Positions 35,309-62,576 of a stretch of 64,000 nucleotides of DNA are shown here, in pieces. Source of the stretch: Eukaryota sp. GEM-RC1 (taxonomy: Eukaryota); NCBI GenBank assembly GCA_040285855.1, contig JAUFOQ010000005.1, positions 2,170,001 through 2,234,000 of the forward strand, in the 5' to 3' direction. The position numbers and the translations under genes are program-made. The number at the start of each line of letters is the position of its first letter. The first letter of the stretch is position 1. The notes below the pieces were generated by a model. The model was not told the DNA's origin, ran no database searches, and saw only the letters and a list, made by a program, of their open reading frames with translations.

Positions 35309-35495
35309 TGTGTCGTTTGTCATATATGATTTATAAAGACATTTGATTGTAATTAAATGAATAAAATTAGGAATTACTTATCGTTTTAAAATTCTGTTAG
35401 AAATCGTCGTCTGACTCAGATCAAGTTGTATCTTGATGGTAGTTCCAATTTCAGTCGTTACTATAATATAATAGAACATCCCCTGGAGTAGCAGA

Positions 35496-38400: not shown

Positions 38401-38577
38401 CTGCGGTGTTTTTTGACGTCCTTTAAAATCCAAGAGCTTATTTTAAAAAACTGCGGGTTTACGGGCGAAGCAATCAAAGTTTTGAATGACTTTATCAAGC
38501 TCGATAGTCCATTGACTTCTCTTGACCTCAATGAATGTGATCTATCTGAGGATGTTTTTAGAGCACTTGGTAAGTAA
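35496..38577 (+). pseudogene. Large divergent LRR gene, multiply disrupted
   Basis: Consecutive ORFs with LTSVDFSDC, LRKLELIFC and SP..ID...G.F.FSP repeats. The N-terminal region (FGFVSQLLFDSSLTAV) resembles the 28-aa LRR family N-domain. Most breaks are shared with the inverted copy. Confidence 0.7.
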
Positions 38578-39034
38578 GTTATAGATTGATTAATTGAATT
38601 CTTTCAATCATTATTTCTGATTTTATAATGATTAGTTTTAAGTTCCAACTTTCTTTTTATTGTGATCTAATACCAGAAATACATCAAGTGTAAGGACAGT
38701 TTCTGATAGTGTTGCTAATTAGATATCTACACAAAAGTTATGTATAGTGATATGTTGCCCTATTAACAATCATTGCATATATTCCTATTCAAACTGTTGT
38801 TTTTATTACATTCCTTCCTCTTCAAACACATTAGACTCCTACTTAGCCTTACAGAATACTTATTTAAACAGATGCTATCAAGTTTATCCATTTGAAGTCC
38901 ACTTGAAAAGGAACAACATTTGTCTTTACTGGAATTGTGGTTTAAAACAACAACAAGAGACATCATGAGAGACGTCAACACATGCAACACCACCTTGACT
39001 TAACCCAAAGAACTTTATCTTCCCATTTAAATTT

Positions 39035-41285
39035 GGGATTTATGCAGATTTCATCACTAATATACATTAATTGCATTTTTCATCTAATATTACTTTATTT
39101 TGCAATCATTGTTTCAACTCATAAAACCTATTTCGTTGGACAGTTTCTCCTGTCATGACCAACTTGGTCACAATTTCTACACTTACGTTGTCGTGGTCTT
39201 GGTGCTGAACCATCTACTACTGTTGGTATCATACTGCTGGCACCTTGCTGCAACACAATCCACTCTGGGCAGTTTCTTCTGTCGTGCCTAATAATTCTAC
39301 AATGACCACATCTACGTGGGGAGAGAGGCATTGCTTCCTGATTCTCTTCCGTTGCTGCTGCGTCAGGTTCTACTTCTTCACTGTCGCTACTCGCATCCTT
39401 CTCATCGAATCTCTTTTGATTAAAGCGTTTAGTACGTGAGTACTTGTCCTTACGTGAAATTGGCGGACGACCTGGCATTACTGTATCTAAAGGAGGAAAC
39501 ACATCACTTTCTAGTTCTTCGATATTCCTTCTATAGTCGATTGGATAAAATTCGCCATCATACGTCTTCTTAAAATTAGTAACTAAATAATAGGGAGACA
39601 CTAAAGATCTGCGGTGAATTCTAACACGTCTCGAAACTGACATTACGTGAATACATGGCACATCATGTTGTTTCCAGAATCCGCAACTGCACGTTTTGTA
39701 CTTCAGATCCACAGAAAACACAAATTCGTTTTCTCTCACGGAATACAAATTGTCGGAGAACGTGGTTACTTCTAAACTGCGAGCTCTCAATATCGACGGC
39801 AACAAATACTCTTCAACATCATCAACGAATTCTCCATGCATCTTCATTGATTCATCTTTTCTTCTTCTGAACAAATGAGTCATTGCTTCAAAGATACCGT
39901 TAACCATTGAAGTCACTGGCAAAGAGCGAACTGGAAGAAGCCATGCATTTAAGGATTCAATGATATTGGAGGTGAGTTGTCCATATCTATTCCCTTCAAA
40001 GTGTACTGTCGACCAAGATTCTTTCGGAGCTGACTCTTCCAAATAAGTATAACCCACTGGGCACTGGATTTGAAGGAGCTGCCAATAGCGGTCAAATTCG
40101 TTTAACGTACTCGCTCTTGCACATTTCCAAAACAATTTCATTGCTTTCTTTCCACCTCTGGACGAGAGATTGTCACTGAGATGTTTACAGCACACAGAGT
40201 GGTAGGTTTCGTCACCAAAAACTTCGACCAGCGTACGGGATATGGCTGGATTTCTGTCACTAATAAATACTGTTTTGTCGTTGATTGCAAAATTGTCATT
40301 CAAATTCTCCAAAAAGCTTCTCCAATTTATTACATTTTCCGTTCGAGTAATTTCAAAAGCTATAGGAAAGAAATGTCCGTTGGCATCAATGCCAGCAGCA
40401 GCCAACAATATTCCCTTGTATTTGGACCTCAGATGAGTTCCATCTATCACGATAACAGGCCTTAAAAACTCAAATCCTTTCACAAGAGGTTGAAAAGTAA
40501 AGAAAAAGCGCTCAAATGTGCCATCAGGTGCAACATTCAGCTTAAAAGGAGAGTCAGGATTAGTGGAGTTGAGACTTTGGAAAAGGGTTCCAGAAAGGTG
40601 TATGAGGTATCTAAAGAACCATAAAGTAGTTCGTTAGTGGCCTCTAGAGCTCGACAGGCTTTACTCGGACTTATATCAATAAAGTACTTGGTTTTCAGCT
40701 TCCTAGCAAATACAGATGGACTGGTAATCTTTCCACCTCTTACTTCTTCTGCCATTAAAATGGCACAGATTTGTTTAGGCAAGGTCGTAAAACATAAGGA
40801 TTGGCAGGAAGCAATGTGATCGACAAACTTTCTTATTTCCCATTCGTGGGTGTCTGTGTCCTGAAAACAGTGGATGTAACAGGGACAAGGTGTAGAGGAG
40901 CCACATCGTATATCCCAACGGTTCTGGTTTTTCTGAGTTATGTCGAAGCTTTTATCACTCGAAAGGAACCAAGAGTAAACATCATGCTGCAAGTGTTGGA
41001 TGTTTGTATAAGAATGACCTTGTTGAAGAGTTGTATTAGTTGTAGTCATTAGTAAAAGAGTATTGATGTTAAATGAATTGTTATTTACTTATGTGATGTA
41101 AATTGACGATTTCCCTAGGTTTTATGAGTTGAAACAATGATTGCAAAATAAAGTAATATTAGATGAAAAATGCAATTAATGTATATTAGTGATGAAATCT
41201 GCATAAATCCCTAATGTATATTAGTGATGAAATCTGCATAAATCCCATTGTTATTTACTTATGTGATGTAAATTGACGATTTCCC
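39035..41285 (-). mobile_element. MULE/MuDR-type transposon copy 1 (39035-41115) plus stacked terminal fragments
   Basis: GGG...CCC imperfect TIRs. 9-bp TSD TTTAAATTT at 39026-39034 and 41286-41294. Confidence 0.92.
39128..41049 (-). CDS. MULE transposase (~640 aa; 1-bp slip at A-run near 40581)
   Basis: IVIDGTH, FISDRN, CCKH, TSNIIES (DDE core), SWIM finger CSCGFWKQHDVPCIH, and two CX2CX3HX4C knuckles. Confidence 0.92.
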
Positions 41286-41315
41286 TTTAAATTTTGGATT
41301 CCCACGATATCCAAC

Positions 41316-43541
41316 ATGCACCTGTTTCTACTCTTTATAGGCTTGATATGCTCTGTTTCATCCAACGTTGCTGATATTGAGTCTGAAACACCGTCTATCC
41401 CTCATGTTACGATTACATCGGATCCCACCGATATCGTATCTCAACTCCTTCTTAATAAGCGAAGTCAAGTTCTCACGGACAAGCTCATTGTATTCCACGA
41501 TCACAATTATCCTTGTCATTCTGCTTTCCTCTCCTCCTTCAGTTCAGTTCTGAGAGAGAAACTCTTGGAAGCCGATTCTGAAGTAAACTTCCCTGAACGA
41601 GACTCTATCATTCCCAATGCCGCTCTTCTCTTCCAAATCCTCGATTACTGCTATGGAGAACCCTTCGAGCTCACGCTTAATAACATGGGCATCGTGCTTA
41701 CCTTGTGTTCCTCCCTGCAGCTCCCCTCCTTAGCAAATCCCATCCATAAGATTATTTCTGAAGGATTTTCTAAGCCAGTTAGCCTTCAGTTGAAACCCGC
41801 AGAAGTTGTCCAACAACTCTACTCAAGTGTACAACGTGACGTGGTGATGAATTACAAGGAAAAGTCTTTCGCTATAAGCTCTCTGACGTTGATTTCAGTT
41901 TCAGAATATTTTAAAAATCTGTTACCTTTGAATTTCTCTCATTCTGAAGAAATGATTTTTGCATATGATCAAGAATTTCCCGATGTTTCAGCTCCAAATT
42001 TTGAAATCTTTGTCAATTATTTCCACGGGAAGTCGTTTGTTCTTGATGTTGATAACGTTATTGATTTTTATCAATTGACAGTCTTTTTTCAAGTAGAAAA
42101 AGTTAAACAAGCTTGTAATTCATTTGTTTCTACGCTTTCTTCTGCTGAAGATATTCTCTTTTGCTCAAAACTATTTCGGAACGGAACATTTTAAATTTTT
42201 TAGAAGAAAATTTTGAAACTTTTGTCCGACTTAAAAACAGTTCCAACCATGATTCTGTTTTTCCTTTACCTCTTCCTTTTATTTCACTTTTGATTGAAGA
42301 AGTTCAAACTTCTTGGTTGTTGAAATGTTTAACTTTGTCTGTCAATTCCGATGTTTTCAAAAATGATTACTCTACGTTAACTCAAATATTTGAAAAATGA
42401 TTGTCACAGATCAAAATATTCATGATACTTACATTTGTCTACAACCTTTATTTAATCAACAGTATCTACATGAATTTCTTTTAAGCTGGACAATGAAAAA
42501 AGCTTTTCCAGGGATTACTGATGTTACTACAATTCCTGATGAATGGTTTTTAGGTGGGTTATCTCAATGGTGTTTTTACGAGTGGGAGAAGAAAATTTTA
42601 AATATTGACTTCTTTGTTCAGAATTTCTCACTTGTCATTGATGAAAAGATTTGATGGCTATTGAAAATTATCCTTTTCTTACACCTGAAATTCTCAAAAA
42701 TTTAAAATCCATTCTACCTCCGTCGTATGACTTATTTCTAGTTAAATGTTTGGTTAAATCATGGAAGAACACAAAACTGTGGACTGTTGAAGATTTTGAG
42801 GACGTGTTTTTTAATTATGATTTTCAGTCTGGGGGAGATGGTGTTGAAATTTTAAATATTCTTTCAAACCTTTTGACTGACTCACGACTTACCAATCGAC
42901 TTACTGTCAATTTATTGAACCATTCTTTGGGTGCTCTTAATTATCACCACAAAGAATTAAAAGCAATGAAGCAACAAAACGTCATTTTAACTAACGAAGT
43001 CAAGTTATTAAAAGAATCTATTCTACCTTGGCTTAAAAGACTGCAAGAAAGAGAGGAAGAACGTCTACAGTTTGAAGCTAGTATTGGTACTTTTAATCCT
43101 GATAATTGTTGCTCGTGTTTAACGTTGTTTGAAAACAATCATGTTGTTAAAACAGAACGTTATAATAATGGTCACAACAGTTTTGTAGAAGTTAATCTTC
43201 CCGACAATCATTCAGTTAAATTTACTAGATTGGATGACATTGATGACGGTCATACTGATTCAATTGGTTGGAAAGATAGCAGCGGTCTTTCAAACAATGT
43301 TATGGCTTTCCCTGGACTTTTTACTAGAGGTGATGGTAGTAGAGGATCTTTCACACCTCCAAGGCCAAAGTTTCCTCCAATTACTAAAGGAGAATCAGTT
43401 GTGGTAAGTTTTGCTTATGGTAAGGCACACTTTAAACCGTCTACTTGTACAACTACTTTTAGTGTCGAAATACCTACTAATTTAATTTTTGGAATGTCCA
43501 TTCCTTGGGAAAATCATGAATGGAAAGTAGAACGTGTTTGA
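41316..43541 (+). CDS. Signal-peptide-like + tandem BTB/POZ-like protein, paralog B (frameshifts at homopolymers)
   Basis: Highly similar to paralog A up to NYHHKELK, then carries a distinct but homologous C-terminal domain. Confidence 0.72.
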
Positions 43542-43842: not shown

Positions 43843-45678
43843 GGTGAAATGATGTTGTTCAAATCTTACTACCATCAATCTGTCAGGAAATTGTATCAGT
43901 AATGAAGGTGCGTTAGAATTGATGGAATTTTTATAATTTGAATGTTCAATTGCAACGGTTAATCTTCAAAGTAATCATTTTGATTCTGGAAACAATGGAA
44001 TTTATTAGAAAATTCTCATTGAATAGGATATTTGTTTAATACAATATGTTCTTAGATTGGCTTTTTCAATCATCATTTTCGATCATCGAATATACAACCT
44101 TATACTTGTGGATTTGATTCGATTAATTAATGATACAGTAAAACTCTATACCACTAAATTTGTTCCAAAACTAGCCAATGTTGGATTTATTTGACTCTAT
44201 TCCAAAGTTGGTCAATCAAAATTTCTTTGATGGGTTATCTTCATTGGTTTCAACAACATGCGATAACCATATTATACTTTGAGCATTACAACACACGGAA
44301 AATTAGTCAAGTTTTCACTGGTGAAACTAGGTTCTAGCATTACAGTATTCTTGAAGTACAGTTTTTGTATTTTAATAAAAAATTATTTAAATAGGTTACT
44401 TTTTATCCAAACAAAGTGTACTTAAGTGTAAATGAAATCACAAAACTTCTTTAATACAATATGTTCTTAGATTGGTTTTTTTAACTTATAAGTGAGAATT
44501 TTTCAAGAAAGTTTTTGAAAAGATCAGAGATCAATCAGAACATCACCATAATTTAACTTTAAAAGAAGAGAACTGATAATTAATATAATTTATTCAAAGA
44601 TTGAAAAGAATCAGAATAAAACAAAACTAAATAATGTACTTACTTAAACCAAGGAATGACATTCCTGTCCTTAGGGAAGTACCCATCGTCAGACAAGAAA
44701 ACTTCATCGTCCTTCAAAGGTCTAAGGGCATAGAGACCAACCAGCTTTTCCCCGTTCACAAACAAATCAAAATATATCAAAATTGGTACCAGTCAAAAAT
44801 TCTAAAAATATTAATAATTCTAAAAGTGTGAATAATTCCAGTAAATCGTCGTTCAATGATCAATTGTCGTACATGTGGTTATGCCATCACCTTTTTCAAG
44901 GAAAACGTCACCACCTTTTTTCAAGGTGCTAGCATAAACACACTCACTGAATCAAGCAAAAATGTTCCTAGAGTGTCTTGAAAATATACTTTGTCAAAGT
45001 ATTAACTCCAATTGTACTCTTTTGGTAATATGTTTAACCTTTAAATAACTTTAACTTTGCCTTTTTAAAGACGGTACGGTATAGCACGCGACCAGGTAAA
45101 AAACGAAGACAGTAACTTAACACAACCGTATTATCTAATCCTTTCCTGATTTTGATTTTGAATATTTTCAAACATAGATTCCCCATTATAATCCATAAAC
45201 GGACGGTTCAAGACAAATTTTAATTATTGTAAAATAAAATCTATCATTTGCTAACAAGAACCCAGACACGTTGTTCATTTTAAGAAATTGCATATGGTGA
45301 TCTCACTCCACAAACTTACTGTGAATATTGTGTCACTCTCAACCAAGAACTCAACACTGACTGTTAAATCGATTTGGATGTGAAGGTCACGTTGAATCGG
45401 TACATTATTGAGATATTCAATGATGTGACACGTCATCAAAAAGCACAATTCGTTACGATAAAGTCGGTCAATGATATACACTAGCATTTATTAAATGCAA
45501 CAACATGTCATTTTGAGGACAAGCATCAGAATGTCTGCAGGAATGATTCATGATGAAAGCAATAGATTCACCACCAATACTGATCTTCCGGAGATTTCGA
45601 ATGGTTCATGGTGTTAATATCAAGTTGAGGATAAAAGACAGTTGGACGTTTGAAAAGAAGACATTTCTTGATTCATCA

Positions 45679-46600
45679 ATGACTACACCACGTCCTAAAC
45701 ATTTGTTGAAAAGGAGTCGCTCATCCCTTCCAAGCTTCTCCTCCGTGATGTCTAACTGTGACGAACTGTCTGTATTGCCTTCAACCACAGATTCTCCCTC
45801 TAAACGTGTCCATGTTCAGCAGACTTTGTTGATTCTGATCCATCTCCACTTGCTTAGACGTTTTCTCAAGGATACTCTTGAAAACAATCACGATCGAACT
45901 AAGCATCAACTATCTGCTTTGAAAAGAACATTATCTGCATTCTTTGGACAAGTTGGCTATGTAAGTAATCACTTCCTTGATTCTTCATTCCAAGCAGTTA
46001 AAGTGTTTTTTCAATTACACACCTTTCATGCTGATCTTGAACACCTTCATAAACTAATTCCACTTGCTTCTTTCTTTGGAGCAGATCTACAATCTGTTTT
46101 CTTGCACCCTGCTGGAAATTTAGAAATTGAGAAGTTTCTTAATTATTCTGGTATAATTACAGGATTGAGAATCGAACTAAGGGAACCCTCTGATTTAGAG
46201 TTTCTAAACAATTCTTCTTCTTTATTTCCACGTCTTAAGCAACTAGAATTAAAAGTAACGAGACGAAACGCCTCTGTTTCTATGTTATTGATTGAAGCGT
46301 TGAAAACCAATACTACGGTTACAAGTGTTAATCTAGGTAGCAACTCTATTGGAGATGTAGGTGCCAGAGCTTTGGCAGAGGCGTTAATAGTTAATTCTTG
46401 TGTAACAAGTGTTGGTCTTCAATCTAACTCTATTGGAGATGAAGGTGCCAGAGCTTTGGCAGAGGCGTTAATAGTTAATTCTTGTGTAACAAGTGTTGGT
46501 CTTCAATCTAACTCTATTGGAGATGAAGGTGTCAGAGCTTTGGCAGATGCGTTGAAAGTTAATGCTTCAGTTACAAGTGTTGATTTGAGTTTAAACTCTA
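45679..46600 (+). pseudogene. 28-aa LRR family member 6, truncated in repeat 4 by a MULE end
   Basis: MTTPRPKH start. The frame ...VDLSLNS runs directly into GGGAAATCGTC at 46601. Confidence 0.85.
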
Positions 46601-48506
46601 GGGAAATCGTCAATTTACATCACATAAGTAAATAACAATTCATTTAACATCAATACTCTTTTACTAATGACTACAACTAATACAACTCTTAAACAAGGTC
46701 ATTCTTATACAAACATCCAACACTTGCAGCATGATGTTTACTCTTGGTTCCTTTCGAGTGATAAAAGCTTCGACATAACTCAGAAAAACCAGAACCGTTG
46801 GGATATACGATGTGGCTCCTCTACACCTTGTCCCTGTTACATCCACTGTTTTCAGGACACAGACACCCTCGAATGGGAAATAAGAAAGTTTGTCGATCAC
46901 ATTGCTTCCTGCCAATCCTTATGTTTTACGACCTTGCCTAAACAAATCTGTGCCATTTTAATGGCAGAAGAAGTAAGAGGTGGAAAGATTACCAGTCCAT
47001 CTGTATTTGCTAGGAAGCTGAAAACCAAGTACTTTATTGATATAAGTCCGAGTAAAGCCTGTCGAGCTCTAGAGGCCACTAACGAACTACTTTATGGTTC
47101 TTTAGATACCTCATACACCTTTCTGGAACCCTTTTTCCAAAGTCTCAACTCCACTAATCCTGACTCTCCTTTTAAGCTGAATGTTGCACCTGATGGCACA
47201 TTTGAGCGCTTTTTCTTTACTTTTCAACCTCTTGTGAAAGGATTTGAGTTTTTAAGGCCTGTTATCGTGATAGATGGAACTCATCTGAGGTCCAAATACA
47301 AGGGAACATTGTTGGCTGCTGCTGGCATTGATACCAACGGACATTTCTTTCCTATAGCTTTTGAAATTACTCGAACGGAAAATGTAATAAATTGGAGAAG
47401 CTTTTTGGAGAATTTGAATGACAATTTTGCAATCAACGACAAAACAGTATTTATTAGTGACAGAAATCCAGCCATATCCCGTACGCTGGTCGAAGTTTTT
47501 GGTGAAGAAACCTACCACTCTGTGTGCTGTAAACATCTCAGTGACAATCTCTCGTCCAGAGGTGGAAAGAAAGCAATGAAATTGTTTTGGAAATGTGCAA
47601 GAGCGAGTACGTTAAACGAATTTGACCGCTATTGGCAGCTCCTTCAAATCCAGTGCCCAGTGGGTTATACTTATTTGGAAGAGTCAGCTCCGAAAGAATC
47701 TTGGTCGACAGTACACTTTGAAGGGAATAGATATGGACAACTCACCTCCAATATCATTGAATCCTTAAATGCATGGCTTCTTCCAGTTCGCTCTTTGCCA
47801 GTGACTTCAATGGTTAACGGTATCTTTGAAGCAATGACACATTTGTTCAGAAGAAGAAAAGATGAATCAATGAAGATGCATGGAGAATTCGTTGATGATG
47901 TTGAAGAGTATTTGTTGCCGTCCGACAATTTGTATTCCGTGAGAGAAAACGAATTTGTGTTTTCTGTGGATCTGAAGTACAAAACGTGCAGTTGCGGATT
48001 CTGGAAACAACATGATGTGCCATGTATTCACGTAATGTCAGTTTCGAGACGTGTTAGAATTCACCCCAGATCTTTAGTGTCTCCCTATTATTTAGTTACT
48101 AATTTTAAGAAGACGTATGATGGCGAATTTTATCCAATCGACTATAGAAGGAATATCGAAGAACTAGAAAGTGATGTGTTTCTCCTTTAGATACAGTAAT
48201 GCCAGGTCGTCCGCCAATTTCACGTAAGGACAAGTACTCACGTACTAAACGCTTTAATCAAAGAGATTCGATGAGAAGGATGCGAGTAGCGACGGTGAAG
48301 AAGTAGAACCTGACGCAGCAGCAACGGAAGAGAATCGAAATGTCTCACGTAGATGTGGTCATTGTAGAATTATTGGGCACGACAGGAAACTGCCCAGAGT
48401 GGATTGCATAGTAGATGGTTCAGCACCAAGACCACGACAACGTAAGTGTAGAAATTGTGACCAAGTTGGTCATGACAGAAGAAACTGTCCAACGAAATAG
48501 GTTTTA
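46601..48506 (+). mobile_element. MULE copy 2 (ends at internal 9-mer TAGGTTTTA; 39-bp in-frame deletion, degraded 3' part)
   Basis: ORF 46667-48190 (LPS|DNLY deletion). Joined tail-to-tail to copy 3. Confidence 0.9.
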
Positions 48507-50588
48507 GGGATTTATGCAGATTTCATCACTAATATACATTAATTGCATTTTTCATCTAATATTACTTTATTTTGCAATCATTGTTTCAACTCATAAAACC
48601 TATTTCGTTGGACAGTTTCTCCTGTCATGACCAACTTGGTCACAATTTCTACACTTACGTTGTCGTGGTCTTGGTGCTGAACCATCTACTACTGTTGGTA
48701 TCATACTGCTGGCACCTTGCTGCAACACAATCCACTCTGGGCAGTTTCTTCTGTCGTGCCCAATAATTCTACAATGACCACATCTACGTGGGGAGAGAGG
48801 CATTGCTTCCTGATTCTCTTCCGTTGCTGCTGCGTCAGGTTCTACTTCTTCACCGTCGCTACTCGCATCCTTCTCATCGAATCTCTTTGATTAAAGCGTT
48901 TAGTACGTGAGTACTTGTCCTTACGTGAAATTGGCGGACGACCTGGCATTACTGTATCTAAAGGAGGAAACACATCACTTTCTAGTTCTTCGATATTCCT
49001 TCTATAGTCGATTGGATAAAATTCGCCATCATACGTCTTCTTAAAATTAGTAACTAAATAATAGGGAGACACTAAAGATCTGGGGTGAATTCTAACACGT
49101 CTCGAAACTGACATTACGTGAATACATGGCACATCATGTTGTTTCCAGAATCCGCAACTGCACGTTTTGTACTTCAGATCCACAGAAAACACAAATTCGT
49201 TTTCTCCTCACGGAATACAAATTGTCGGAGAACGTGGTTACTTCTAAACTGCGAGCTCTCAATATCGACGGCAACAAATACTCTTCAACATCATCAACGA
49301 ATTCTCCATGCATCTTCATTGATTCATCTTTTCTTCTTCTGAACAAATGAGTCATTGCTTCAAAGATACCGTTAACCATTGAAGTCACTGGCAAAGAGCG
49401 AACTGGAAGAAGCCATGCATTTAAGGATTCAATGATATTGGAGGTGAGTTGTCCATATCTATTCCCTTCAAAGTGTACTGTCGACCAAGATTCTTTCGGA
49501 GCTGACTCTTCCAAATAAGTATAACCCACTGGGCACTGGATTTGAAGGAGCTGCCAATAGCGGTCAAATTCGTTTAACGTACTCGCTCTTGCACATTTCC
49601 AAAACAATTTCATTGCTTTCTTTCCACCTCTGGACGAGAGATTGTCACTGAGATGTTTACAGCACACAGAGTGGTAGGTTTCTTCACCAAAAACTTCGAC
49701 CAGCGTACGGGATATGGCTGGATTTCTGTCACTAATAAATACTGTTTTGTCGTTGATTGCAAAATTGTCATTCAAATTCTCCAAAAAGCTTCTCCAATTT
49801 ATTACATTTTCTGTTCGAGTAATTTCAAAAGCTATAGGAAAGAAATGTCCGTTGGTATCAATGCCAGCAGCAGCCAACAATGTTCCCTTGTATTTGGACC
49901 TCAGATGAGTTCCATCTATCACGATAACAGGCCTTAAAAACTCAAATCCTTTCACAAGAGGTTGAGAAGTAAAGAAAAAGCGCTCAAATGTGCCATCAGG
50001 TGCAACATTCAGCTTAAAAGGAGAGTCAGGATTAGTGGAGTTGAGACTTTGGAAAAAGGGTTCCAGAAAGGTGTATGAGGTATCTAAAGAACCATAAAGT
50101 AGTTCGTTAGTGGCCTCTAGAGCTCGACAGGCTTTACTCGGACTTATATCAATAAAGTACTTGGTTTTCAGCTTCCTAGCAAATACAGATGGACTGGTAA
50201 TCTTTCCACCTCTTACTTCTTCTGCCATTAAAATGGCACAGATTTGTTTAGGCAAGGTCGTAAAACATAAGGATTGGCAGGAAGCAATGTGATCGACAAA
50301 CTTTCTTATTTCCCATTCGTGGGTGTCTGTGTCCTGAAAACAGTGGATGTAACAGGGACAAGGTGTAGAGGAGCCACATCGTATATCCCAACGGTTCTGG
50401 TTTTTCTGAGTTATGTCGAAGCATTTATCACTCGAAAGGAACCAAGAGTAAACATCATGCTGCAAGTGTTGGATGTTTGTATAAGAATGACCTTGTTGAA
50501 GAGTTGTATTAGTTGTAGTCATTAGTAAAAGAGTATTGATGTTAAATGAATTGTTATTTACTTATGTGATGTAAATTGACGATTTCCC
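48507..50588 (-). mobile_element. MULE copy 3 (both termini present)
   Basis: GGGATTTATG...GATTTCCC. Transposase pieces at 48600-50522. Confidence 0.9.
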
Positions 50589-52678
50589 TAGGTTTTATGA
50601 GTTGAAACAATGATTGCAAAATAAAGTAATATTAGATGAAAAATGCAATTAATGTATATTAGTGATGAAATCTGCATAAATCCCTAAAACCTATTTCGTT
50701 GGACAGTTTCTCCTGTCATGACCAACTTGGTCACAATTTCTACACTTACGTTGTCGTGGTCTTGGTGCTGAACCATCTACTACTGTTGGTATCATACTGC
50801 TGGCACCTTGCTGCAACACAATCCACTCTGGGCAGTTTCCTCTGTCGTGCCCAATAATTCTACAATGACCACATCTACGTGGGGAGAGAGGCATTGCTTC
50901 CTGATTCTCTTCCGTTGCTGCTGCGTCAGGTTCTACTTCTTCACTGTCGCTACTCGCATCCTTCTCATCGAATCTCTTTTGATTAAAGCGTTTAGTACGT
51001 GAGTACTTGTCCTTACGTGAAATTGGCGGACGACCTGGCATTACTGTATCTAAAGGAGGAAACACATCACTTTCTAGTTCTTCGATATTCCTTCTATAGT
51101 CGATTGGATAAAATTCGCCATCATACGTCTTCTTAAAATTAGTAACTAAATAATAGGGAGACACTAAAGATCTGGGGTGAATTCTAACACGTCTCGAAAC
51201 TGACATTACGTGAATACATGGCACATCATGTTGTTTCCAGAATCCGCAACTGCACGTTTTGTACTTCAGATCCACAGAAAACACAAATTCGTTTTCTCTC
51301 ACGGAATACAAATTGTCGGAGAACGTGGTTACTTCTAAACTGCGAGCTCTCAATATCGACGGCAACAAATACTCTTCAACATCATCAACGAATTCTCCAT
51401 GCATCTTCATTGATTCATCTTTTCTTCTTCTGAACAAATGTGTCATTGCTTCAAAGATACCGTTAACCATTGAAGTCACTGGCAAAGAGCGAACTGGAAG
51501 AAGCCATGCATTTAAGGATTCAATGATATTGGAGGTGAGTTGTCCATATCTATTCCCTTCAAAGTGTACTGTCGACCAAGATTCTTTCGGAGCTGACTCT
51601 TCCAAATAAGTATAACCCACTGGGCACTGGATTTGAAGGAGCTGCCAATAGCGGTCAAATTCGTTTAACGTACTCGCTCTTGCACATTTCCAAAACAATT
51701 TCATTGCTTTCTTTCCACCTCTGGACGAGAGATTGTCACTGAGATGTTTACAGCACACAGAGTGGTAGGTTTCTTCACCAAAAACTTCGACCAGCGTACG
51801 GGATATGGCTGGATTTCTGTCACTAATAAATACTGTTTTGTCGTTGATTGCAAAATTGTCATTCAAATTCTCCAAAAAGCTTCTCCAACTTATTACATTT
51901 TCCGTTCGAGTAATTTCAAAAGCTATAGGAAAGAAATGTCCGTTGGTATCAATGCCAGCAGCAGCCAACAATGTTCCCTTGTATTTGGACCTCAGATGAG
52001 TTCCATCTATCACGATAACAGGCCTTAAAAACTCAAATCCTTTCACAAGAGGTTGAAAAGTAAAGAAAAAGCGCTCAAATGTGCCATCAGGTGCAACATT
52101 CAGCTTAAAAGGAGAGTCAGGATTAGTGGAGTTGAGACTTTGGAAAAGGGTTCCAGAAAGGTGTATGAGGTATCTAAAGAACCATAAAGTAGTTCGTTAG
52201 TGGCCTCTAGAGCTCGACAGGCTTTACTCGGACTTATATCAATAAAGTACTTGGTTTTCAGCTTCCTAGCAAATACAGATGGACTGGTAATCTTTCCACC
52301 TCTTACTTCTTCTGCCATTAAAATGGCACAGATTTGTTTAGGCAAGGTCGTAAAACATAAGGATTGGCAGGAAGCAATGTGATCGACAAACTTTCTTATT
52401 TCCCATTCGTGGGTGTCTGTGTCCTGAAAACAGTGGATGTAACAGGGACAAGGTGTAGAGGAGCCACATCGTATATCCCAACGGTTCTGGTTTTTCTGAG
52501 TTATGTCGAAGCTTTTATCACTCGAAAGGAACCAAGAGTAAACATCATGCTGCAAGTGTTGGATGTTTGTATAAGAATGACCTTGTTGAAGAGTTGTATT
52601 AGTTGTAGTCATTAGTAAAAGAGTATTGATGTTAAATGAATTGTTATTTACTTATGTGATGTAAATTGACGATTTCCC
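50589..52678 (-). mobile_element. MULE array unit 4 (96-bp 3' end inverted)
   Basis: TAGGTTTTA-3'end-CCC (50589-50684), then TAAAACCTA and transposase 50691-52612. Confidence 0.9.
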
Positions 52679-54728
52679 TAGGTTTTATGAGTTGAAACAA
52701 TGATTGCAAAATAAAGTAATATTAGATGAAAAATGCAATTAATGTATATTAGTGATGAAATCTGCATAAATCCCTAAAACCTATTTCGTTGGACAGTTTC
52801 TCCTGTCATGACCAACTTGGTCACAATTTCTACACTTACGTTGTCGTGGTCTTGGTGCTGAACCATCTACTACTGTTGGTATCATACTGCTGGCACCTTG
52901 CTGCAACACAATCCACTCTGGGCAGTTTCCTCTGTCGTGCCCAATAATTCTACAATGACCACATCTACGTGGGGAGAGAGGCATTGCTTCCTGATTCTCT
53001 TCCGTTGCTGCTGCGTCAGGTTCTACTTCTTCACTGTCGCTACTCGCATCCTTCTCATCGAATCTCTTTTGATTAAAGCGTTTAGTACGTGAGTACTTGT
53101 CCTTACGTGAAATTGGCGGACGACCTGGCATTACTGTATCTAAAGGAGGAAACACATCACTTTCTAGTTCTTCGATATTCCTTCTATAGTCGATTGGATA
53201 AAATTCGCCATCATACGTCTTCTTAAAATTAGTAACTAAATAATAGGGAGACACTAAAGATCTGGGGTGAATTCTAACACGTCTCGAAACTGACATTACG
53301 TGAATACATGGCACATCATGTTGTTTCCAGAATCCGCAACTGCACGTTTTGTACTTCAGATCCACAGAAAACACAAATTCGTTTTCTCTCACGGAATACA
53401 AATTGTCGGAGAACGTGGTTACTTCTAAACTGCGAGCTCTCAATATCGACGGCAACAAATACTCTTCAACATCATCAACGAATTCTCCATGCATCTTCAT
53501 TGATTCATCTTTTCTTCTTCTGAACAAATGTGTCATTGCTTCAAAGATACCGTTAACCATTGAAGTCACTGGCAAAGAGCGAACTGGAAGAAGCCATGCA
53601 TTTAAGGATTCAATGATATTGGAGGTGAGTTGTCCATATCTATTCCCTTCAAAGTGTACCGTCGACCAAGATTCTTTCGGAGCTGACTCTTCCAAATAAG
53701 TATAACCCACTGGGCACTGGATTTGAAGGAGCTGCCAATAGCGGTCAAATTCGTTTAACGTACTCGCTCTTGCACATTTCCAAAACAATTTCATTGCTTT
53801 CTTTCCACCTCTGGACGAGAGATTGTTACTGAGATGTTTACAGCACACAGAGTGGTAGGTTTCTTCACCAAAAACTTCGACCAGCGTACGGGATATGGCT
53901 GGATTTCTGTCACTAATAAATACTGTTTTGTCGTTGATTGCAAAATTGTCATTCAAATTCTCCAAAAAGCTTCTCCAATTTATTACATTTTCCGTTCGAG
54001 TAATTTCAAAAGCTATAGGAAAGAAATGTCCGTTGGTATCAATGCCAGCAGCAGCCAACAATGTTCCCTTGTATTTGGACCTCAGATGAGTTCCATCTAT
54101 CACGATAACAGGCCTTTAAAACAACCTCAAATGTGCCTCAAGTGCAACATTCAGCTTAAAAGGAGAGTCAGGATTAGTGGAGTTGAGACTTTGGAAAAGG
54201 GTTCCAGAAAGGTGTATGAGGTATCTAAAGAACCATAAAGTAGTTCGTTAGTGGCCTCTAGAGCTCGACAGGCTTTACTCGGACTTATATCAATAAAGTA
54301 CTTGGTTTTCAGCTTCCTAGCAAATACAGATGGACTGGTAATCTTTCCACCTCTTACTTCTTCTGCCATTAAAATGGCACAGATTTGTTTAGGCAAGGTC
54401 GTAAAACATAAGGATTGGCAGGAAGCAATGTGATCGACAAACTTTCTTATTTCCCATTCGTGGGTGTCTGTGTCCTGAAAACAGTGGATGTAACAGGGAC
54501 AAGGTGTAGAGGAGCCACATCGTATATCCCAACGGTTCTGGTTTTCTGAGTTATGTCGAAGCTTTTATCACTCGAAAGGAACCAAGAGTAAACATCATGC
54601 TGCAAGTGTTGGATGTTTGTATAAGAATGACCTTGTTGAAGAGTTGTATTAGTTGTAGTCATTAGTAAAAGAGTATTGATGTTAAATGAATTGTTATTTA
54701 CTTATGTGATGTAAATTGACGATTTCCC
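52679..54728 (-). mobile_element. MULE array unit 5 (96-bp 3' end inverted; local deletion near 54115)
   Basis: Same junction at 52679-52783. Transposase pieces at 52781-54662. Confidence 0.9.
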
Positions 54729-56653
54729 TAGGTTTTATGAGTTGAAACAATGATTGCAAAATAAAGTAATATTAGATGAAAAATGCAATTAATGTATATT
54801 AGTGATGAAATCTGCATAAATCCCTAAAACCTATTTCGTTGGACAGTTTCTCCTGTCATGACCAACTTGGTCACAATTTCTACACTTACGTTGTCGTGGT
54901 CTTGGTGCTGAACCATCTACTACTGTTGGTATCATACTGCTGGCACCTTGCTGCAACACAATCCACTCTGGGCAGTTTCTGTCGTGCCCAATAATTCTAC
55001 AATGACCACATCTACGTGGGGAGAGAGGCATTGCTTCCTGATTCTCTTCCGTTGCTGCTGCGTCAGGTTCTACTTCTTCACTGTCGCTACTCGCATCCTT
55101 CTCATCGAATCTCTTTTGATTAAAGCGTTTAGTACGTGAGTACTTGTCCTTACGTGAAATTGGCGGACGACCTGGCATTACTGTATCTAAAGGAGGAAAC
55201 ACATCACTTTCTAGTTCTTCGATATTCCTTCTATAGTCGATTGGATAAAATTCGCCATCATACGTCTTCTTAAAATTAGTAACTAAATAATAGGGAGACA
55301 CTAAAGATCTGGGGTGAATTCTAACACGTCTCGAAACTGACATTACGTGAATACATGGCACATCATGTTGTTTCCAGAATCCGCAACTGCACGTTTTGTA
55401 CTTCAGATCCACAGAAAACACAAATTCGTTTTCTCTCACGGAATACAAATTGTCGGAGAACGTGGTTACTTCTAAACTGCGAGCTCTCAATATCGACGGC
55501 AACAAATACTCTTCAACATCATCAACGAATTCTCCATGCATCTTCATTGATTCATCTTTTCTTCTTCTGAACAAATGTGTCATTGCTTCAAAGATACCGT
55601 TAACCATTGAAGTCACTGGCAAAGAGCGAACTGGAAGAAGCCATGCATTTAAGGATTCAATGATATTGGAGGTGAGTTGTCCATATCTATTCCCTTCAAA
55701 GTGTACTGTCGACCAAGATTCTTTCGGAGCTGACTCTTCCAAATAAGTATAACCCACTGGGCACTGGATTTGAAGGAGCTGCCAATAGCGGTCAAATTCG
55801 TTTGTTCTACCTTTCGACATTTCCAAAACACAGAGTGGTGTTTCACCACAAACTTTCGACCAAAAGCGCAGCTGGATATGGCTGTCATAAATACTGTTTG
55901 TCGTTGATTGCAATTGTCATTCAAATTCCGCTTTCAATTATTACATTTTCGTTCGAGTTTTAGCTATAGGAAAAAGATCAATGCCAGCAGCAGCCAACAA
56001 TGTTCCCTTGTATTTGGACCTCAGATGAGTTCCATCTATCACGATAACAGGCCTTAAAAACCAAATCCTTTCACAAGAGGTTGAAAAGTAAAGAAAAAGC
56101 GCTCAAATGTGCCATCAGGTGCAACATTCAGCTTAAAAGGAGAGTCAGGATTAGTGGAGTTGAGACTTTGGAAAGGGTTCCAGAAAGGTGTATGAGGTAT
56201 CTAAAGAACCATAAAGTGTAGTGGCTCTAGAGCTCGACAGGCTTTACTCGGACTTATATCAATAAAGTACTTGGTTTTCAGCTTCCTAGCAAATACAGAT
56301 GGACTGGTAATCTTTCCACCTCTTACTTCTTCTGCCATTAAAATGGCAAATTGTGATTTGTTTAGGCTCGCAAGGATTGGCAGGAAGCAATGTGATCGAC
56401 AAACTTTCTTATTTCCCATTCGTGGGTGTCTGTGTCCTGAAAACAGTGGATGTAACAGGGACAGAGGAGCCACATCGTATATCCCAACGGTTCTGGTTTT
56501 CTGAGTTATGTCGAAGCTTTTATCACTCGAAAGGAACCAAGAGTAAACATCATGCTGCAAGTGTTGGATGTTTGTATAAGAATGACCTTGTTGAAGAGTT
56601 GTATTAGTTGTAGTCATTAGTAAAAGAGTATTGATGTTAAATGAATTGTTATT
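54729..56653 (-). mobile_element. MULE array unit 6 (poor-quality middle; 5' end cut at ATTGTTATT)
   Basis: Same junction at 54729-54833. Many indels at 55800-56470. Confidence 0.85.
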
Positions 56654-58730
56654 GGGAAATCGTCAATTTACATCACATAAGTAAATAACAATTCATTTAA
56701 CATCAATACTCTTTTACTAATGACTACAACTAATACAACTCTTCAACAAGGTCATTCTTATACAAACATCCAACACTTGCAGCATGATGTTTACTCTGGT
56801 TCCTTTCGAGTGATAAAAGCTTCGACATAACTCAGAAAACCAGAACCGTTGGGATATACGATGTGGCTCCTCTACACCTTGTCCCTGTTACATCCACTGT
56901 TTTCAGGACACAGACACCCACGAATGGGAAATAAGAAAGTTTGTCGATCACATTGCTTCCCGCCAATCCTTACGTTTTACGACCTTGCCTAAACAAATCT
57001 GTGCCATTTTAATGGCAGAAGAAGTAAGAGGTGGAAAGATTACCAGTCCATCTGTATTTGCTAGGAAGCTGAAAACCAAGTACTTTATTGATATAAGTCC
57101 GAGTAAAGCCTGCCGAGCTCTAGAGGCCACTAACGAACTACTTTATGGTTCTTTAGATACCTCATACACCTTTCTGGAACCCTTTTCCAAAGTCTCAACT
57201 CCACTAATCCTGACTCTCCTTTTAAGCTGAATGTTGCACCTGATGGCACATTTGAGCGCTTTTTCTTTACTTTTCAACCTCTTGTGAAAGGATTTGAGTT
57301 TTTAAGGCCTGTTATCGTGATAGATGGAACTCATCTGAGGTCCAAATACAAGGGAACATTGTTGGCTGCTGCTGGCATTGATGCCAACGGACATTTCTTT
57401 CCTATAGCTTTGAAATTACTCGAACGGAAAATGTAATAAATTGGAGAAGCTTTTGGAGAATTTGAATGACAATTTTGCAATCAACGACAAAACAGTATTT
57501 ATTAGTGACAGAAATCCAGCCATATCCCGTACGCTGGTCGAAGTTTTTGGTGAAGAAACCTACCACTCTGTGTGCTGTAAACATCTCAGTGACAATCTCT
57601 CGTCCAGAGGTGGAAAGAAAGCAATGAAATTGTTTTGGAAATGTGCAAGAGCGAGTACGTTAAACGAATTTGACCGCTATTGGCAGCTCCTTCAAATCCA
57701 GTGCCCAGTGGGTTATACTTATTTGGAAGAGTCAGCTCCGAAAGAATCTTGGTCGACAGTACACTTTGAAGGGAATAGATATGGACAACTCACCTCCAAT
57801 ATCATTGAATCCTTAAATGCATGGCTTCTTCCAGTTCGCTCTTTGCCAGTGACTTCAATGGTTAACGGTATCTTTGAAGCAATGACTCATTTGTTCAGAA
57901 GAAGAAAAGATGAATCAATGAAGATGCATGGAGAATTCGTTGATGATGTTGAAGAGTATTTGTTGCCGTCGATATTGAGAGCTCGCAGTTTAGAAGTAAC
58001 CACGTTCTCCGACAATTTGTATTCCGTGAGAGAAAACGAATTTGTGTTTTCTGTGGATCTGAAGTACAAAACGTGCAGTTGCGGATTCTGGAAACAACAT
58101 GATGTGCCATGTATTCACGTAATGTCAGTTTCGAGACGTGTTAGAATTCACCCCAGATCTTTAGTGTCTCCCTATTATTTAGTTACTAATTTTAAGAAGA
58201 CGTATGATGGCGAATTTTATCCAATCGACTATAGAAGGAATATCGAAGAACTAGAAAGTGATGTGTTTCCTCCTTTAGATACAGTAATGCCAGGTCGTCC
58301 GCCAATTTCACGTAAGGACAAGTACTCACGTACTAAACGCTTTAATCAAAAGAGATTCGATGAGAAGGATGCGAGTAGCGACAGTGAAGAAGTAGAACCT
58401 GACGCAGCAGCAACGGAAGAGAATCAGGAAGCAATGCCTCTCTCCCCACGTAGATGTGGTCATTGTAGAATTATTGGGCACGACAGAAGAAACTGCCCAG
58501 AGTGGATTGTGTTGCAGCAAGGTGCCAGCAGTATGATACCAACAGTAGTAGATGGTTCAGCACCAAGACCACGACAACGTAAGTGTAGAAATTGTGACCA
58601 AGTTGGTCATGACAGGAGAAACTGTCCAACGAAATAGGTTTTATGAGTTGAAACAATGATTGCAAAATAAAGTAATATTAGATGAAAAATGCAATTAATG
58701 TATATTAGTGATGAAATCTGCATAAATCCC
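56654..58730 (+). mobile_element. MULE copy 7 (inverted duplicate of copy 1)
   Basis: GGGAAATCG...ATAAATCCC followed by AAATTTAAA, the reverse complement of the copy 1 flank. Confidence 0.9.
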
Positions 58731-58955
58731 AAATTTAAATGGGAAGATAAAGTTCTTTGGGTTAAGTCAAGGTGGTGTTGCATGTGTTGACGTCTCTCAT
58801 GATGTCTCTTGTTGTTGTTTTAAACCACAATTCCAGTAAAGACAAATGTTGTTCCTTTTTCAAGTGGACTTCAAATGGATAAACTTGATAGCATCTGTTT
58901 AAATAAGTATTCTGTAAGGCTAAGTAGGAGTCTAATGTGTTTGAAGAGGAAGGAA

Positions 58956-59117
58956 GAGATGTTTATTCGGCACCCAATAAGGTAACCTTTCTACAAACTA
59001 TGAAATTGTAAAAACAAACAAATAATACTAAGATTAAATCCAAACGACTTCATCACCACCCGGTAAAAGATTACGTTTATCTACATGAACCTTCACACCA
59101 AACTTGTACAATTTCTC
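58956..59117 (-). mobile_element. 162-bp 5'-truncated RLE-type non-LTR insertion
   Basis: 11-bp direct repeat AGAGGAAGGAA at 58945-58955 and 59118-59128. Absent from the paralogous arm (~38811-38821). Sequence matches the 3' end of the 33.6-33.7 kb remnant. Confidence 0.85.
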
Positions 59118-59362
59118 AGAGGAAGGAATGTAATAAAAACAACAGTTTGAATAGGAATATATGCAATGATTGTTAATAGGGCAACATATCACTATACATA
59201 ACTTTTGTGTAGATATCTAATTAGCAACACTATCAGAAACTGTCCTTACACTTGATGTATTTCTGGTATTAGATCACAATAAAAAGAAAGTTGGAACTTA
59301 AAACTAATCATTATAAAATCAGAAATAATGATTGAAAGAATTCAATTAATCAATCTATAACT

Positions 59363-62300
59363 TACTTACCAAGTGCTCTAAAAACATCCTCAGATAGATC
59401 ACATTCATTGAGGTCAAGAGAAGTCAATGGACTATCGAGCTTGATAAAGTCATTCAAAACTTTGATTGCTTCGCCCGTAAACCCGCAGTTTTTTTAAAAA
59501 TAAGCTCTTGGATTTTAAAGGACGTCAAAAAACACCGCAGAGATACAACATCGTCAGTTGTTAATTGAGTAAAACTCTCTGGTGAATAACAAAACAAGCC
59601 ATTGTCAACACCAACAAAAGAAGGAGAAATATCAAGATCGATCACTGAATTGTTGATAGAAAGAATTTCAAATAAGGTGATTAGTCCTGCTAGTCTTGAA
59701 CTTTTCAATCCAAGGCAATCAACACGTTTAAGAGGAAGGTTTGACCTTAACGAATTTAAAAGTGAAATTATTTCCTGATTTTCAATCTCATTCTGATAAC
59801 GAATAAATGCAAGTGAAAAATCAACAAAATGAGGGAAAACATCAATAGTTGTGGGTTTGCTGACTGATGACGTCATCACTTTTGTTTCATAAACAGACAA
59901 AAGAGTGTTGATTCCAATGGAACAATTTCGAAAGCTAACCGCGTTCAAAGAAGAGTTACACAACGATTTGATTAAGTTTGAAAAAGTGTCATCCAATGTG
60001 GGAGTACAACTGTTTCTAAAAGGACCATTATGTTTTGAACAATCAAACTAAATCAATCACTGAAGTCAACAGAAGTCAATTCCTGATTGATGCTGACTGA
60101 ATCATACAATCCAACCATGTCTTCGTAAATAAATGAACACCCTCTAATAGCAAGATCTTTGATACTGAAACACGTCAGCAAAGACTGTAAAGCTAAAACT
60201 TCTGAAGATCAGTTTCCGTAGCTCTTTCTGGTAGAAATCGTAAAACACTATTTTCAATATCAATAAAATGAGGAGAAACTTGAATTGTTGGAATGAGTGT
60301 TCTAGTGGAAAATAGCTTAAAAAGAGCTAAAAGACTCATAAATCCGATGTGAAAATTGTTGAAATTATTGTTGTTTAGAAAAGAAAGAGAATGTAGGGCT
60401 TTGAGTAAGTCTGAGAAAACAACATCGGTAAAATAACTAAAGCGACAGAAATCTAGATGATTTAATCCACAGTCACTGAAGCTGACAGAAGTCAATGACT
60501 TATTGACCCTAATTAAATCACAAATAACAGGGATTGTTCTATCAAAAAGATACAACTCTTAATTGCCAGCTCTTCGATAGAACTACACTTCAAAAGAAGT
60601 TTTAGATTAGATTTCCTCAATAGTGATCGTGAACGAACATTGAAAGAACTTTCAGGAGAAAAACAGAACAAACCTTTATCAGTTTCAATCGTATACGGAG
60701 AAACATGAATATTAAGGGTTAATTTGTGAGTAGGAATCAAATTAAAGATATGTAAAAGACTTTTGAGACCAATGTTGGTATTGCTTAGATTGATCCTTTT
60801 CAAATAACAATTGGACTGACATGCATTGAGGATACATAAGATCACGTCATCATCTAGACTACAATCACTGAAGTCAACAGAAGTCAAGCAGTTATTATTC
60901 CTTATTAAATGACATAAAACGGGGATTGATTGGTGAGTAAAACTACATCCTTTTAAAAAAAGTTCTGTGATGGTAAAACACTGTAAAATCGACTGTAATA
61001 ACGAATGTTCGGTAGCAGTTATTCGAGAACAAATGTATATGTGAGTTACTGAAGAATTTGGTGGACTTGGTGAGAAATAAAACACGCCCCTGTGAATATC
61101 AATTAAATTAGGAGTCAGATCAATCCGAGATCGTACCTTTTCACTAAACATTGGTTCAAACAAGGAGAGTAGAAATTTTAAATTTAAGGAGTGAAAACAG
61201 ACTTTCTTCAGTACAGAATTCAATTCGAGAGATTTCAGAATGTGTTTAAACTGATTTAGTTCAACCCGTAAATCTTGGAGACTAAGCACAAGGAAATATT
61301 GTGTTGGACCATTTCTAATAACAACTTAACTGTCTGGTCATTGATCTGACATCAGGTAAAACAATTGACAACTCTAGTAGTGAAGTATTAGATATAAGAG
61401 ATTTAAAAATTGTTGAGAGTTCAACATTACAGAATATTAATTCAAGTTTTCTTAAAGCAGTGTTGAATTTTAACACTTTCCCAAGGTCTTCACCCTTAAA
61501 GTAAGCGAACTTAACAGAAAGTTCTCTAATAGATGAGTTGTTCTCAAGTCCATTGAATAAGGCAGAATCAAGACAACCACCAGGAAGAGTAATACTTCTA
61601 AGACTTAAACTTTTGAAAAGTGGAATAAGATCGCTTGAACACTGGATTCGAAGATTATTCAAATGAATTTTTGAAATATTTGAATTATTTGAAATTGCGG
61701 TAAATAGAATCAAAGATACTTTATTATTAATTGAGTAGTCAGAGCTAAATGAAATTGTTCTCAGGGTGTTGTTAGAATAAAACACCTCTGCCAGCGAGGC
61801 AGCTTCAGTAGAAGTAAGTGAGTGCAGACCAAGATTTAACTCTAAAATTGTTCTATTACCCATTAAAGACTTACAAAGTGCAGTAAAAGTATCTCCCTGA
61901 AAAGATGACTTCCTGGGAATGTCAAGAACTCGCAGACGTGGAAGGAAAAGAGAAGACGAATGGTCAAGTAAGTAATGTACAAAAGAAGAACTACTGATGT
62001 TAAATGAGTTATATTAGTAGTAAACTCAATAATATCTTTATCTACAAGAAAGTCATTTACAATCAGGTAAACAGAATAAACCTTTGCTTTAAAGAATGAA
62101 GTCATTGCAGAAAGTAGAACAATGTCTTTTGGGAAAACGGGAATAGTAGTTGTTCCAAGAAACAGTTGCACTGCTGTCAATGAAGAATCAAAGAATAGTT
62201 GACTTACAAAGCCAAACTTTTTAATAAATCCAACAAGTTTGTTTCCCAAACGACAGAGAGAATGTTGACGATAGTTTTGATGATTTTTTGACTACAAGAG

Positions 62301-62443
62301 AAGACTACTAGAGAAGACTTCAAGTGATGACTCAACAAGTGACAATTAATCAACACCAATAATTACTGTTGGCGGTGTAATGTTAGAAGAGGGTAATCAG
62401 TCAGTTCATCTGAGGAACAAATGGTCTTAAATGGGAGATTCAT
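59363..62443 (-). pseudogene. Inverted duplicate of the divergent LRR pseudogene
   Basis: ORFs 59454-62249 mirror 35690-38577. Confidence 0.7.
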
Positions 62444-62576
62444 TCTGCTACTCCAGGGGATGTTCTATTATATTATAGTAACGACTGAAATTGGAACTAC
62501 CATCAAGAGCAGCATGTGTGTGGTAGAAAGTTTTCAACTTGAAACTAAATCTTCTTTCAATCGTCAAACTCCTCCC

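What the first reader, a model, noticed from the sequence alone, without database searches (positions are those of the whole stretch)
41116..41294. Stack of transposon ends: three different self-targeted 9-bp sites, all within 100 bp of the termini
Seen: after copy 1's end (41115) come the 96-bp 3' end (starting TAGGTTTTA), a 35-bp 3' end (starting TAATGTATA, 41212-41246) and a 39-bp 5' end (starting ATTGTTATT, 41247-41285). Only then does the genomic TSD TTTAAATTT appear, matching 39026-39034. Every junction is a precise terminal CCC joined to an internal subterminal site. Inference: this transposase preferentially inserts into or next to its own TIRs. Loops of 35-39 bp are very short for a purely intramolecular reaction, which favours insertion into a sister or neighbouring copy.
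Basis: partly seen in the sequence, partly recalled or inferred. Interest (0 to 1): 0.8.

Follow-up and report, generated by a model that had tools for sequence, protein, structure and literature searches.

The report
Transposon ends jumping into own ends
A Mutator-type jumping gene in a microbial eukaryote carries three extra fragments of its own ends, joined base-perfectly to its right side, likely left by repeated misdirected jumps into the ends of a sister or neighbouring copy; such jumps are known from maize and flies, and here they may show how transposons with doubled ends arise.

Summary
A 2,081-bp Mutator (MULE) element (39035-41115) is followed by 96, 35 and 39 bp of its own ends, each 100% identical to the element, and then by the 9-bp target duplication. 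For 2 of the 3 self-sites the reciprocal junction lies 7-15 kb away with exactly 9 bp of overlap, the mark of transposase action. The 35-bp piece has no partner and could be a tandem duplication. In a symbolic model, plain nesting cannot give the stack: it takes three hybrid-end (sister or neighbour) reactions, or three nested insertions plus a recombination collapse. One such event also seeds the neighbouring 2,090-bp tandem array. A true preference for its own TIRs is not established. There are only three sites, the ends are the AT-richest part of the element (p 0.02; 0.06-0.31 with an AT-context null), and proximity or survival bias could do the same. No genome or reads were available. It works like maize Ac/Ds alternative transposition and P-element hybrid insertion; I found no report of this self-targeted form for a MULE.

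The parts
39026..39034 (+). Left copy of the genomic 9-bp target duplication
39035..41115 (-). Copy 1: full-length 2,081-bp MULE; imperfect TIRs of about 60 bp starting GGGA; transposase gene on the minus strand (41049-39128), split here by a one-base frameshift in an A run near E1546
41116..41211 (-). Stub E96->1 (3' end of the element); joined to copy 1's R end at site E88-96, which holds the transposase stop codon
41212..41246 (-). Stub E35->1; tandem second copy of the L terminus; reciprocal junction absent from the window
41247..41285 (+). Stub E2043->2081 (5' end, R terminus); site lies 28-36 bp upstream of the transposase ATG
41286..41294 (+). Right copy of the genomic target duplication, 22 bp before the ATG of a BTB/POZ gene (41316-42194)
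46592..46600 (+). Nine genomic bases next to an R end inside a leucine-rich-repeat gene (45550-46600); no second copy next to an element end in the window
46601..48506 (+). Copy 2: E2081->88, inverted, with block deletions; forms a palindrome with copy 3
48507..50588 (-). Copy 3: full length, L end joined to E88 of copy 2, R end joined to E96
50589..56653 (-). Tandem array of three units [E96->1 + E88->2081], period 2,091/2,090/2,050 bp (2,081 + 9); last unit ends at E2051
56654..58730 (+). Copy 7: full length, inverted; R end joined to E2051 of copy 6 (reciprocal of the L|2043 junction in the stack); L end still on the same donor flank as copy 1
58731..62508 (-). Inverted second copy of the left flank 35431-39034; differs by 9 substitutions, a few small indels and a ~170-bp insertion

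Best explanation
The stack is three exact fragments of a Mutator transposon's own ends, likely left by successive hybrid-end (alternative) transposition events in which a cut end, still attached to its chromosome arm, attacked a sister or neighbouring copy 27-96 bp inside one of its termini. Shown: the element, the junctions, the 9-bp overlaps at two sites, the intact outer target duplication. Inferred: (1) an R end and an L end from two copies insert at E88-96, giving flank-E-[96->1]-[88->2081]-flank, which unequal exchange or a repeat event expands to the 2,090-bp array; (2) a stub's L end and another copy's R end insert at E2043-2051, leaving the 39-bp stub on one product and the 2051|R palindrome on the other; (3) an L end attacks E27-35 of the sister stub, doubling the last 35 bp. 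The order of (2) and (3) is open. The clustering near the ends is likely due to nearness of the partner end plus AT-rich non-coding DNA and harmlessness of such hits, rather than recognition of the TIR as a target.
For: MULE, Transposase_mut and SWIM domains above Pfam cut-offs; intact 640-aa relatives in a 22-member cluster on at least 4 contigs, 15 of 22 listed. Reciprocal junction pairs with exact 9-bp overlap, equal to the genomic TSD length. Shortest modelled route to the stack is 3 hybrid-end steps; plain nesting never reaches it; the same first step gives the array unit. The R ends joined to E96 (copy 1) and to E2051 (copy 7) belong to copies whose L ends are still on the donor flank, one R end sits in a host gene with no partner duplication in the window, and the flank is duplicated in inverted form: all expected from ends that moved without their own partner. 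All 4 copies that begin at E88 share a T at E844 where all 3 full-length copies have A, which fits one founding event at E88-96 and later amplification. Muta1 cuts both strands and can join single ends in vitro (PMC5499845, passages). Alternative transposition is proposed for the MULE VANDAL21 (PMC12312487, passages).
Against: Three nested insertions plus one recombination give the identical sequence in 4 steps, and one nested insertion plus a 96-bp flip gives the array unit; step counts are parsimony, not probability, and the model allowed only the 3 observed sites. Strictly single-end intermolecular steps alone did not reach the stack within 6 steps. L|35 has no reciprocal and has 3 bp of microhomology if it arose while E88 followed the stub. 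The two flank copies differ by 0.25% and a small insertion, so they are not fresh sisters; they may be alleles joined by the assembler. No reads or genome could be examined. SNP patterns in repeats can be scrambled by polishing (general knowledge).
Confidence: 0.5

Rival explanations
1. Ordinary cut-and-paste copies inserted one inside another three times (E2043-2051, then E27-35, then E88-96), and recombination between the outermost and innermost direct copies, in the cell or in the assembler, removed about 6 kb and left only the right-hand halves.
For: Reaches the exact stack in 4 steps and keeps the outer TSD. 46601-50684 reads as a plain inverted nest with the 9-mer on both sides of copy 3. 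Other copies in the genome could supply the donors.
Against: Needs an R|27 junction that is not in the window; does not by itself explain the unpaired R end at 46600, the inverted flank copy, or the array unless a crossover in 96 bp is allowed.
Confidence: 0.27
2. An excised element integrated into itself at E88-96, forming a 2,090-bp inversion circle that recombined back into a chromosomal copy (once, repeatedly or as a rolling-circle multimer); later end attacks made the two shorter stubs.
For: The array period is exactly 2,081 + 9 bp and circle integration gives it in one step per unit; circle plus two single-end steps gives the stack in 3 steps. Inversion circles are a known autointegration product (PMC3952818, passages).
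Against: Needs a 96-bp loop; Sleeping Beauty autointegration rarely hit the inverted repeats (same paper). Cannot make the 35- and 39-bp stubs on its own.
Confidence: 0.15
3. The stack is a sequencing or assembly artefact.
For: Copies 2 and 6 carry 89 and 144 deleted bases in blocks with 0-2 bp microhomology, a sign of poorly supported consensus; the inverted flank copy could be a second haplotype joined in.
Against: Copy 1 and the stubs have no block deletions and the stubs are exact. Errors do not create terminus-exact junctions with 9-bp reciprocal overlaps at two sites. The two noisy copies are arms of tight palindromes, where nanopore base calling is known to fail (PMC7229812, abstract), which suggests these palindromes were on real molecules if nanopore reads were used (platform not known).
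Confidence: 0.05

Closest known systems
Maize Ac/Ds alternative transposition (sister-chromatid and reversed-ends transposition, composite insertions)
   Same: Ends of two copies used together; products carry split target duplications, inverted and tandem duplications, and can involve rolling-circle re-replication (PMC3744419, PMC4270019, 10.1101/2020.01.07.897926; passages). The stack has L and R ends in direct orientation, the configuration that drives sister-chromatid transposition.
   Different: hAT superfamily, 8-bp TSD; described targets lie in flanking DNA kilobases to megabases away. Here the enzyme is a MULE and 3 of 4 secondary targets are inside the element's own last 100 bp.
Drosophila P-element hybrid element insertion and local tandem insertion
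   Same: Hybrid use of ends from separate copies (named in PMC3744419); frequent tandem dimers that expand to arrays (10.1101/158386, passages). A hot spot inside the P terminal repeat for local hops is recalled from memory; those papers were not held.
   Different: Different superfamily; the natural dimers described there keep intact ends separated by an 8-bp host TSD, not stubs cut at internal sites.
Double Ds and sesqui-Ds of maize (recalled, not read)
   Same: An element inserted inverted into a copy of itself, giving directly oriented ends.
   Different: One nesting event in a non-autonomous hAT element; here three distinct self-sites, all terminal, in an autonomous-type MULE.
Tandem-TIR and extra-TIR MULEs of plants (Ferguson and Jiang 2012, PMC3310237)
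   Same: A MULE with extra terminal sequences on one side, the whole flanked by one TSD and the inner end lacking its own TSD (their type 3). The paper says the origin of the extra TIR is not clear (passages).
   Different: Plant elements have long TIRs, are old and mostly non-autonomous. Here the stubs are 100% identical, include both L and R ends, and the reciprocal junctions survive nearby.
VANDAL21 alternative transposition in Arabidopsis (PMC12312487)
   Same: A MULE pair causing local deletions, inversions and complex rearrangements.
   Different: Seen in hypomethylated mutants, targets outside the elements, TSDs not resolved (passages).
Autointegration of Sleeping Beauty/piggyBac; Tn10 target-site channelling
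   Same: Self-targeting; inversion circle has the junctions of the array unit; IHF channels Tn10 targets close to its end (as stated in PMC3952818).
   Different: Sleeping Beauty showed no channelling and avoided its own inverted repeats; products are lost circles, not chromosomal stacks.

Membership tests
Mutator/MULE superfamily | MULE-type DDE transposase | tested here: met
   PF10551 57 bits (cut-off 27.6), PF00872 above cut-off; acidic motifs at 203, 265 and 365 and a CxxH motif in the intact 640-aa relative P0023 (motif roles from general knowledge)
Mutator/MULE superfamily | 8-11 bp target site duplication | tested here: met
   9 bp at the genomic site and at 2 self-sites; range from PMC6446971
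Mutator/MULE superfamily | Terminal inverted repeats (14-500 bp, sometimes degenerate) | tested here: met
   Imperfect TIR of about 60 bp with GGGA at both ends; short and degenerate, closer to 'non-TIR' MULEs
Mutator/MULE superfamily | Zinc-finger domains (SWIM, CCHC) | tested here: met
   SWIM above cut-off; two CCHC-like knuckles at the C terminus
Alternative (hybrid-end) transposition products | Reciprocal junctions with a split TSD, ends contributed by different copies | tested here: met
   L|2043 in the stack and 2051|R on copy 7, 15.4 kb apart, exact 9-bp overlap
Alternative (hybrid-end) transposition products | Structure not explicable by ordinary insertion plus homologous recombination | tested here: inconclusive
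   Nesting plus recombination reaches the stack in 4 steps
Alternative (hybrid-end) transposition products | Excision footprint or twin reciprocal chromatid; dependence on replication | not testable with these tools
   No reads, progenitor or sibling lines
Tandem-TIR MULEs | Extra terminal sequence inside one TSD pair, inner end without TSD | tested here: met
   39035-41285 between the two TSD copies
Tandem-TIR MULEs | The compound element has itself transposed (copies at new sites) | not testable with these tools
   One copy in the window; genome not held
Autointegration inversion circles | Free circle with R|t+8 and L|t junctions | not testable with these tools
   Junction pair present in the chromosomal array only

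The most novel reading that the evidence does not exclude
This MULE transposase channels its targets to DNA 27-96 bp inside a partner copy's end, so the element breeds in place: it stacks new ends, builds tandem arrays whose units keep a complete transposase reading frame, and makes palindromes. That would be a direct, transposase-driven origin for tandem-TIR MULEs and for hairpin (Mu-killer-like) loci.
Probability: 0.25. Interest if true: 0.7.

Novelty: new variant of a known kind. Interest (0 to 1): 0.45.

Why it matters
How MULEs gain extra terminal repeats is described as unclear (PMC3310237), and alternative transposition has only recently been proposed for a MULE (PMC12312487). This locus keeps both halves of two self-insertion junctions at base resolution, so it offers a concrete route from one element to stacked ends, a 2,090-bp array and palindromes of the kind that start silencing in maize. 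Intact 640-aa transposases exist, so end-proximal targeting can be tested directly. The limit is that it is one locus with three sites, and the classes of reaction are known.

Tried and rejected
Sequencing runs: none was listed; no evidence either way. Pattern scan of metagenome contigs with the L terminus: 1 locus (L001), matching only the 21-nt pattern, taken as chance. Earlier findings: none by place or sequence; 8 loose word matches, all other kinds of element. Empty-site test through the paralogous BTB gene: similarity stopped at the target site, left-flank score 43 against a shuffled maximum of 49, so it neither confirms nor denies the original flank join. Plain nesting without recombination, strictly single-end steps alone, and circle integration alone each failed to reach the stack in the model. 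A nick-only replicative (rolling-circle) route was considered; it fits the array period but was set lower because Muta1 makes double-strand breaks; it was not modelled. Ten paper searches listed no report of a MULE inserting repeatedly just inside its own termini; the library lacks most subscription journals, older Genetics papers were not held, and no supplements were read. 10.1101/024216 and PMC3903597 passages added nothing on self-targeting.

Full report
Observation. The element (E) spans 39035-41115, 2,081 bp; I number it from the left end L = 1 to the right end R = 2081. After R come E96->1, E35->1 and E2043->2081, each exact, and then the second copy of the 9-bp target duplication. The duplication does not extend to 10 bp, and the 9-mer occurs 9 times on this strand of the window.

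The element. The gene reads from R towards L. It carries MULE, Transposase_mut and SWIM domains above Pfam cut-offs. The ends are imperfect inverted repeats of about 60 bp. The best database hit is 98% identical and labelled 'Eukaryota sp. GEM-RC1'; the other 18 of 19 hits are 22-41% identical, from metagenomes and plants. The cluster has 22 members; the 15 listed lie on 4 contig lengths and include three 640-aa forms. Copy 1 has a one-base frameshift in an A run, also seen at other loci; it may be a real allele or a homopolymer error.

The wider locus. A second cluster at 46601-58730 reads E2081->88, E1->2081, then three units of [E96->1, E88->2081] with the last ending at E2051, then E2081->1, then an inverted copy of the left flank. 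It holds the reciprocal junctions for 2 of the 3 self-sites: L|88 for R|96, and 2051|R for L|2043, each overlapping by exactly 9 bp. This is the best evidence that the transposase made these joints. The third, L|35, has no partner; it is also a 35-bp tandem duplication, with 3 bp of microhomology if it formed while E88 followed the stub. One R end interrupts a leucine-rich-repeat gene at 46600 with no partner duplication in the window. All 4 copies starting at E88 share a T at E844 where the 3 full copies have A, so the many E88-96 junctions likely descend from one event and are not independent hits.

How the stack can arise. I searched symbolically over nested insertion, homologous recombination, hybrid-end reactions between sisters and inversion-circle integration, allowing only the three observed sites. 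Nesting alone never gives the stack. Nesting three times plus one deletion gives it in 4 steps. Hybrid-end reactions give it in 3 steps, with or without a 96-bp loop. A circle made at E88-96 plus two single-end steps also takes 3. The array unit comes from one hybrid step, one circle, or one nest plus a flip in 96 bp. The sequence cannot separate these, and step counts are not probabilities. I favour hybrid ends because the attacking R ends of copies 1 and 7 are on copies still attached to the donor flank, one R end is unpaired in a host gene, and the flank is duplicated in inverted form. Against this, the two flank copies differ by 9 substitutions in 3.6 kb and a ~170-bp insertion, and copies 1 and 7 by 7 substitutions, so they look like alleles or older duplicates, and their joining may be an assembly choice.

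Is there a preference for the ends? Three of 3 self-sites are in the terminal 100 bp: p 0.0007 if any 9-mer of the element is a target. But the ends are 74-75% AT against 50-67% inside, and all 5 targets have at least 7 of 9 A/T. Counting only such 9-mers gives p 0.02; adding a 29-bp AT context of 0.65-0.72 gives 0.06-0.31, and 0.56 at a stricter threshold than one observed site meets. Including flanking DNA, the chance that 3 of 4 local targets are terminal runs from 0.0001 (5-kb hops) to 0.17 (500-bp hops, strict context). These filters were drawn from the observed sites and the window was chosen for the pattern. The ends are also the element's only non-coding DNA: one site is 28-36 bp before its ATG, one holds its stop codon, and the genomic site is 22 bp before a BTB gene's ATG. 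VANDAL MULEs favour 5' regions and accessible chromatin (PMC12312487, passages), while Muta1 showed no sequence preference (PMC5225508, passages). So very short-range targeting is suggested; recognition of the TIR as a target is not shown.

Artefact check. Copy 1 has no block deletions; copies 2 and 6, each an arm of a tight palindrome, have 89 and 144 deleted bases. That matches the base-calling failure reported for inverted duplications on nanopores (PMC7229812, abstract), or real palindrome instability. Copy number and layout of the array are therefore less sure than the junctions. No genome or runs were available.

Comparison. It is a MULE by every feature tested. It works like Ac/Ds alternative transposition and P-element hybrid insertion (PMC3744419, PMC4270019, 10.1101/2020.01.07.897926, 10.1101/158386; passages); double Ds and the P-element terminal hot spot are recalled, not read. 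It differs in that the targets are the element's own ends, which Sleeping Beauty avoided in autointegration (PMC3952818, passages). The product, extra ends inside one TSD pair, matches plant MULEs with extra TIRs whose origin is left open (PMC3310237, passages). MULE features were taken from PMC6446971, PMC5499845 and PMC4334395 (passages). Ten searches listed no report of this self-targeted form in a MULE, within a library that lacks most subscription journals; supplements were not read.

Verdict. Real, transposase-made and unusually well preserved; a new variant of known aberrant transposition. The claim of a built-in preference for its own ends stays open at about 1 in 4. Interest 0.45.

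Noticed in passing
window 58945-59128: A ~170-bp insertion flanked by a 10-11 bp direct repeat is present in the inverted flank copy and absent at 38811-38821; four partial relatives (75-95%) lie at 12787, 17875, 22046 and 33630. It looks like a polymorphic MITE.
   Followed up: partly
window 35431-39034 against 58731-62508: Inverted 3.6-kb flank duplication with 9 substitutions; its far breakpoint shows no element end and, on the right, lies about 70 bp before an ATG in a long open frame (62397-63998) unlike anything else in the window. Two alleles joined by assembly, or a real fold-back.
   Followed up: partly
window 46601-50588: Copies 2 and 3 are convergent and form a ~2-kb palindrome with an 87-bp spacer; read-through would give hairpin RNA, as in Mu killer (inference).
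   Followed up: no
window 39122-39130 (E88-96): The self-target contains the transposase stop codon, so copies cut at E88 keep the whole reading frame and the 5' end; the array multiplies coding capacity.
   Followed up: partly
window ~40580 (E1546): An A run is one base longer in copies 2 and 3, which keeps the frame; the short form recurs in database proteins from other loci (170-aa truncation, 12-aa gap). Real allele or homopolymer error.
   Followed up: partly
window 5500-46600: Many paralogous leucine-rich-repeat genes with 84-bp units and BTB/POZ genes (27524-28315, 41316-42194) in duplicated modules, 78-97% alike.
   Followed up: no
window 9797-11776, 67-837, 31573-32382: A telomere-length-regulation (PF10193) gene, a zinc-knuckle ORF, and a below-cut-off retrotransposon gag match.
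   Followed up: no
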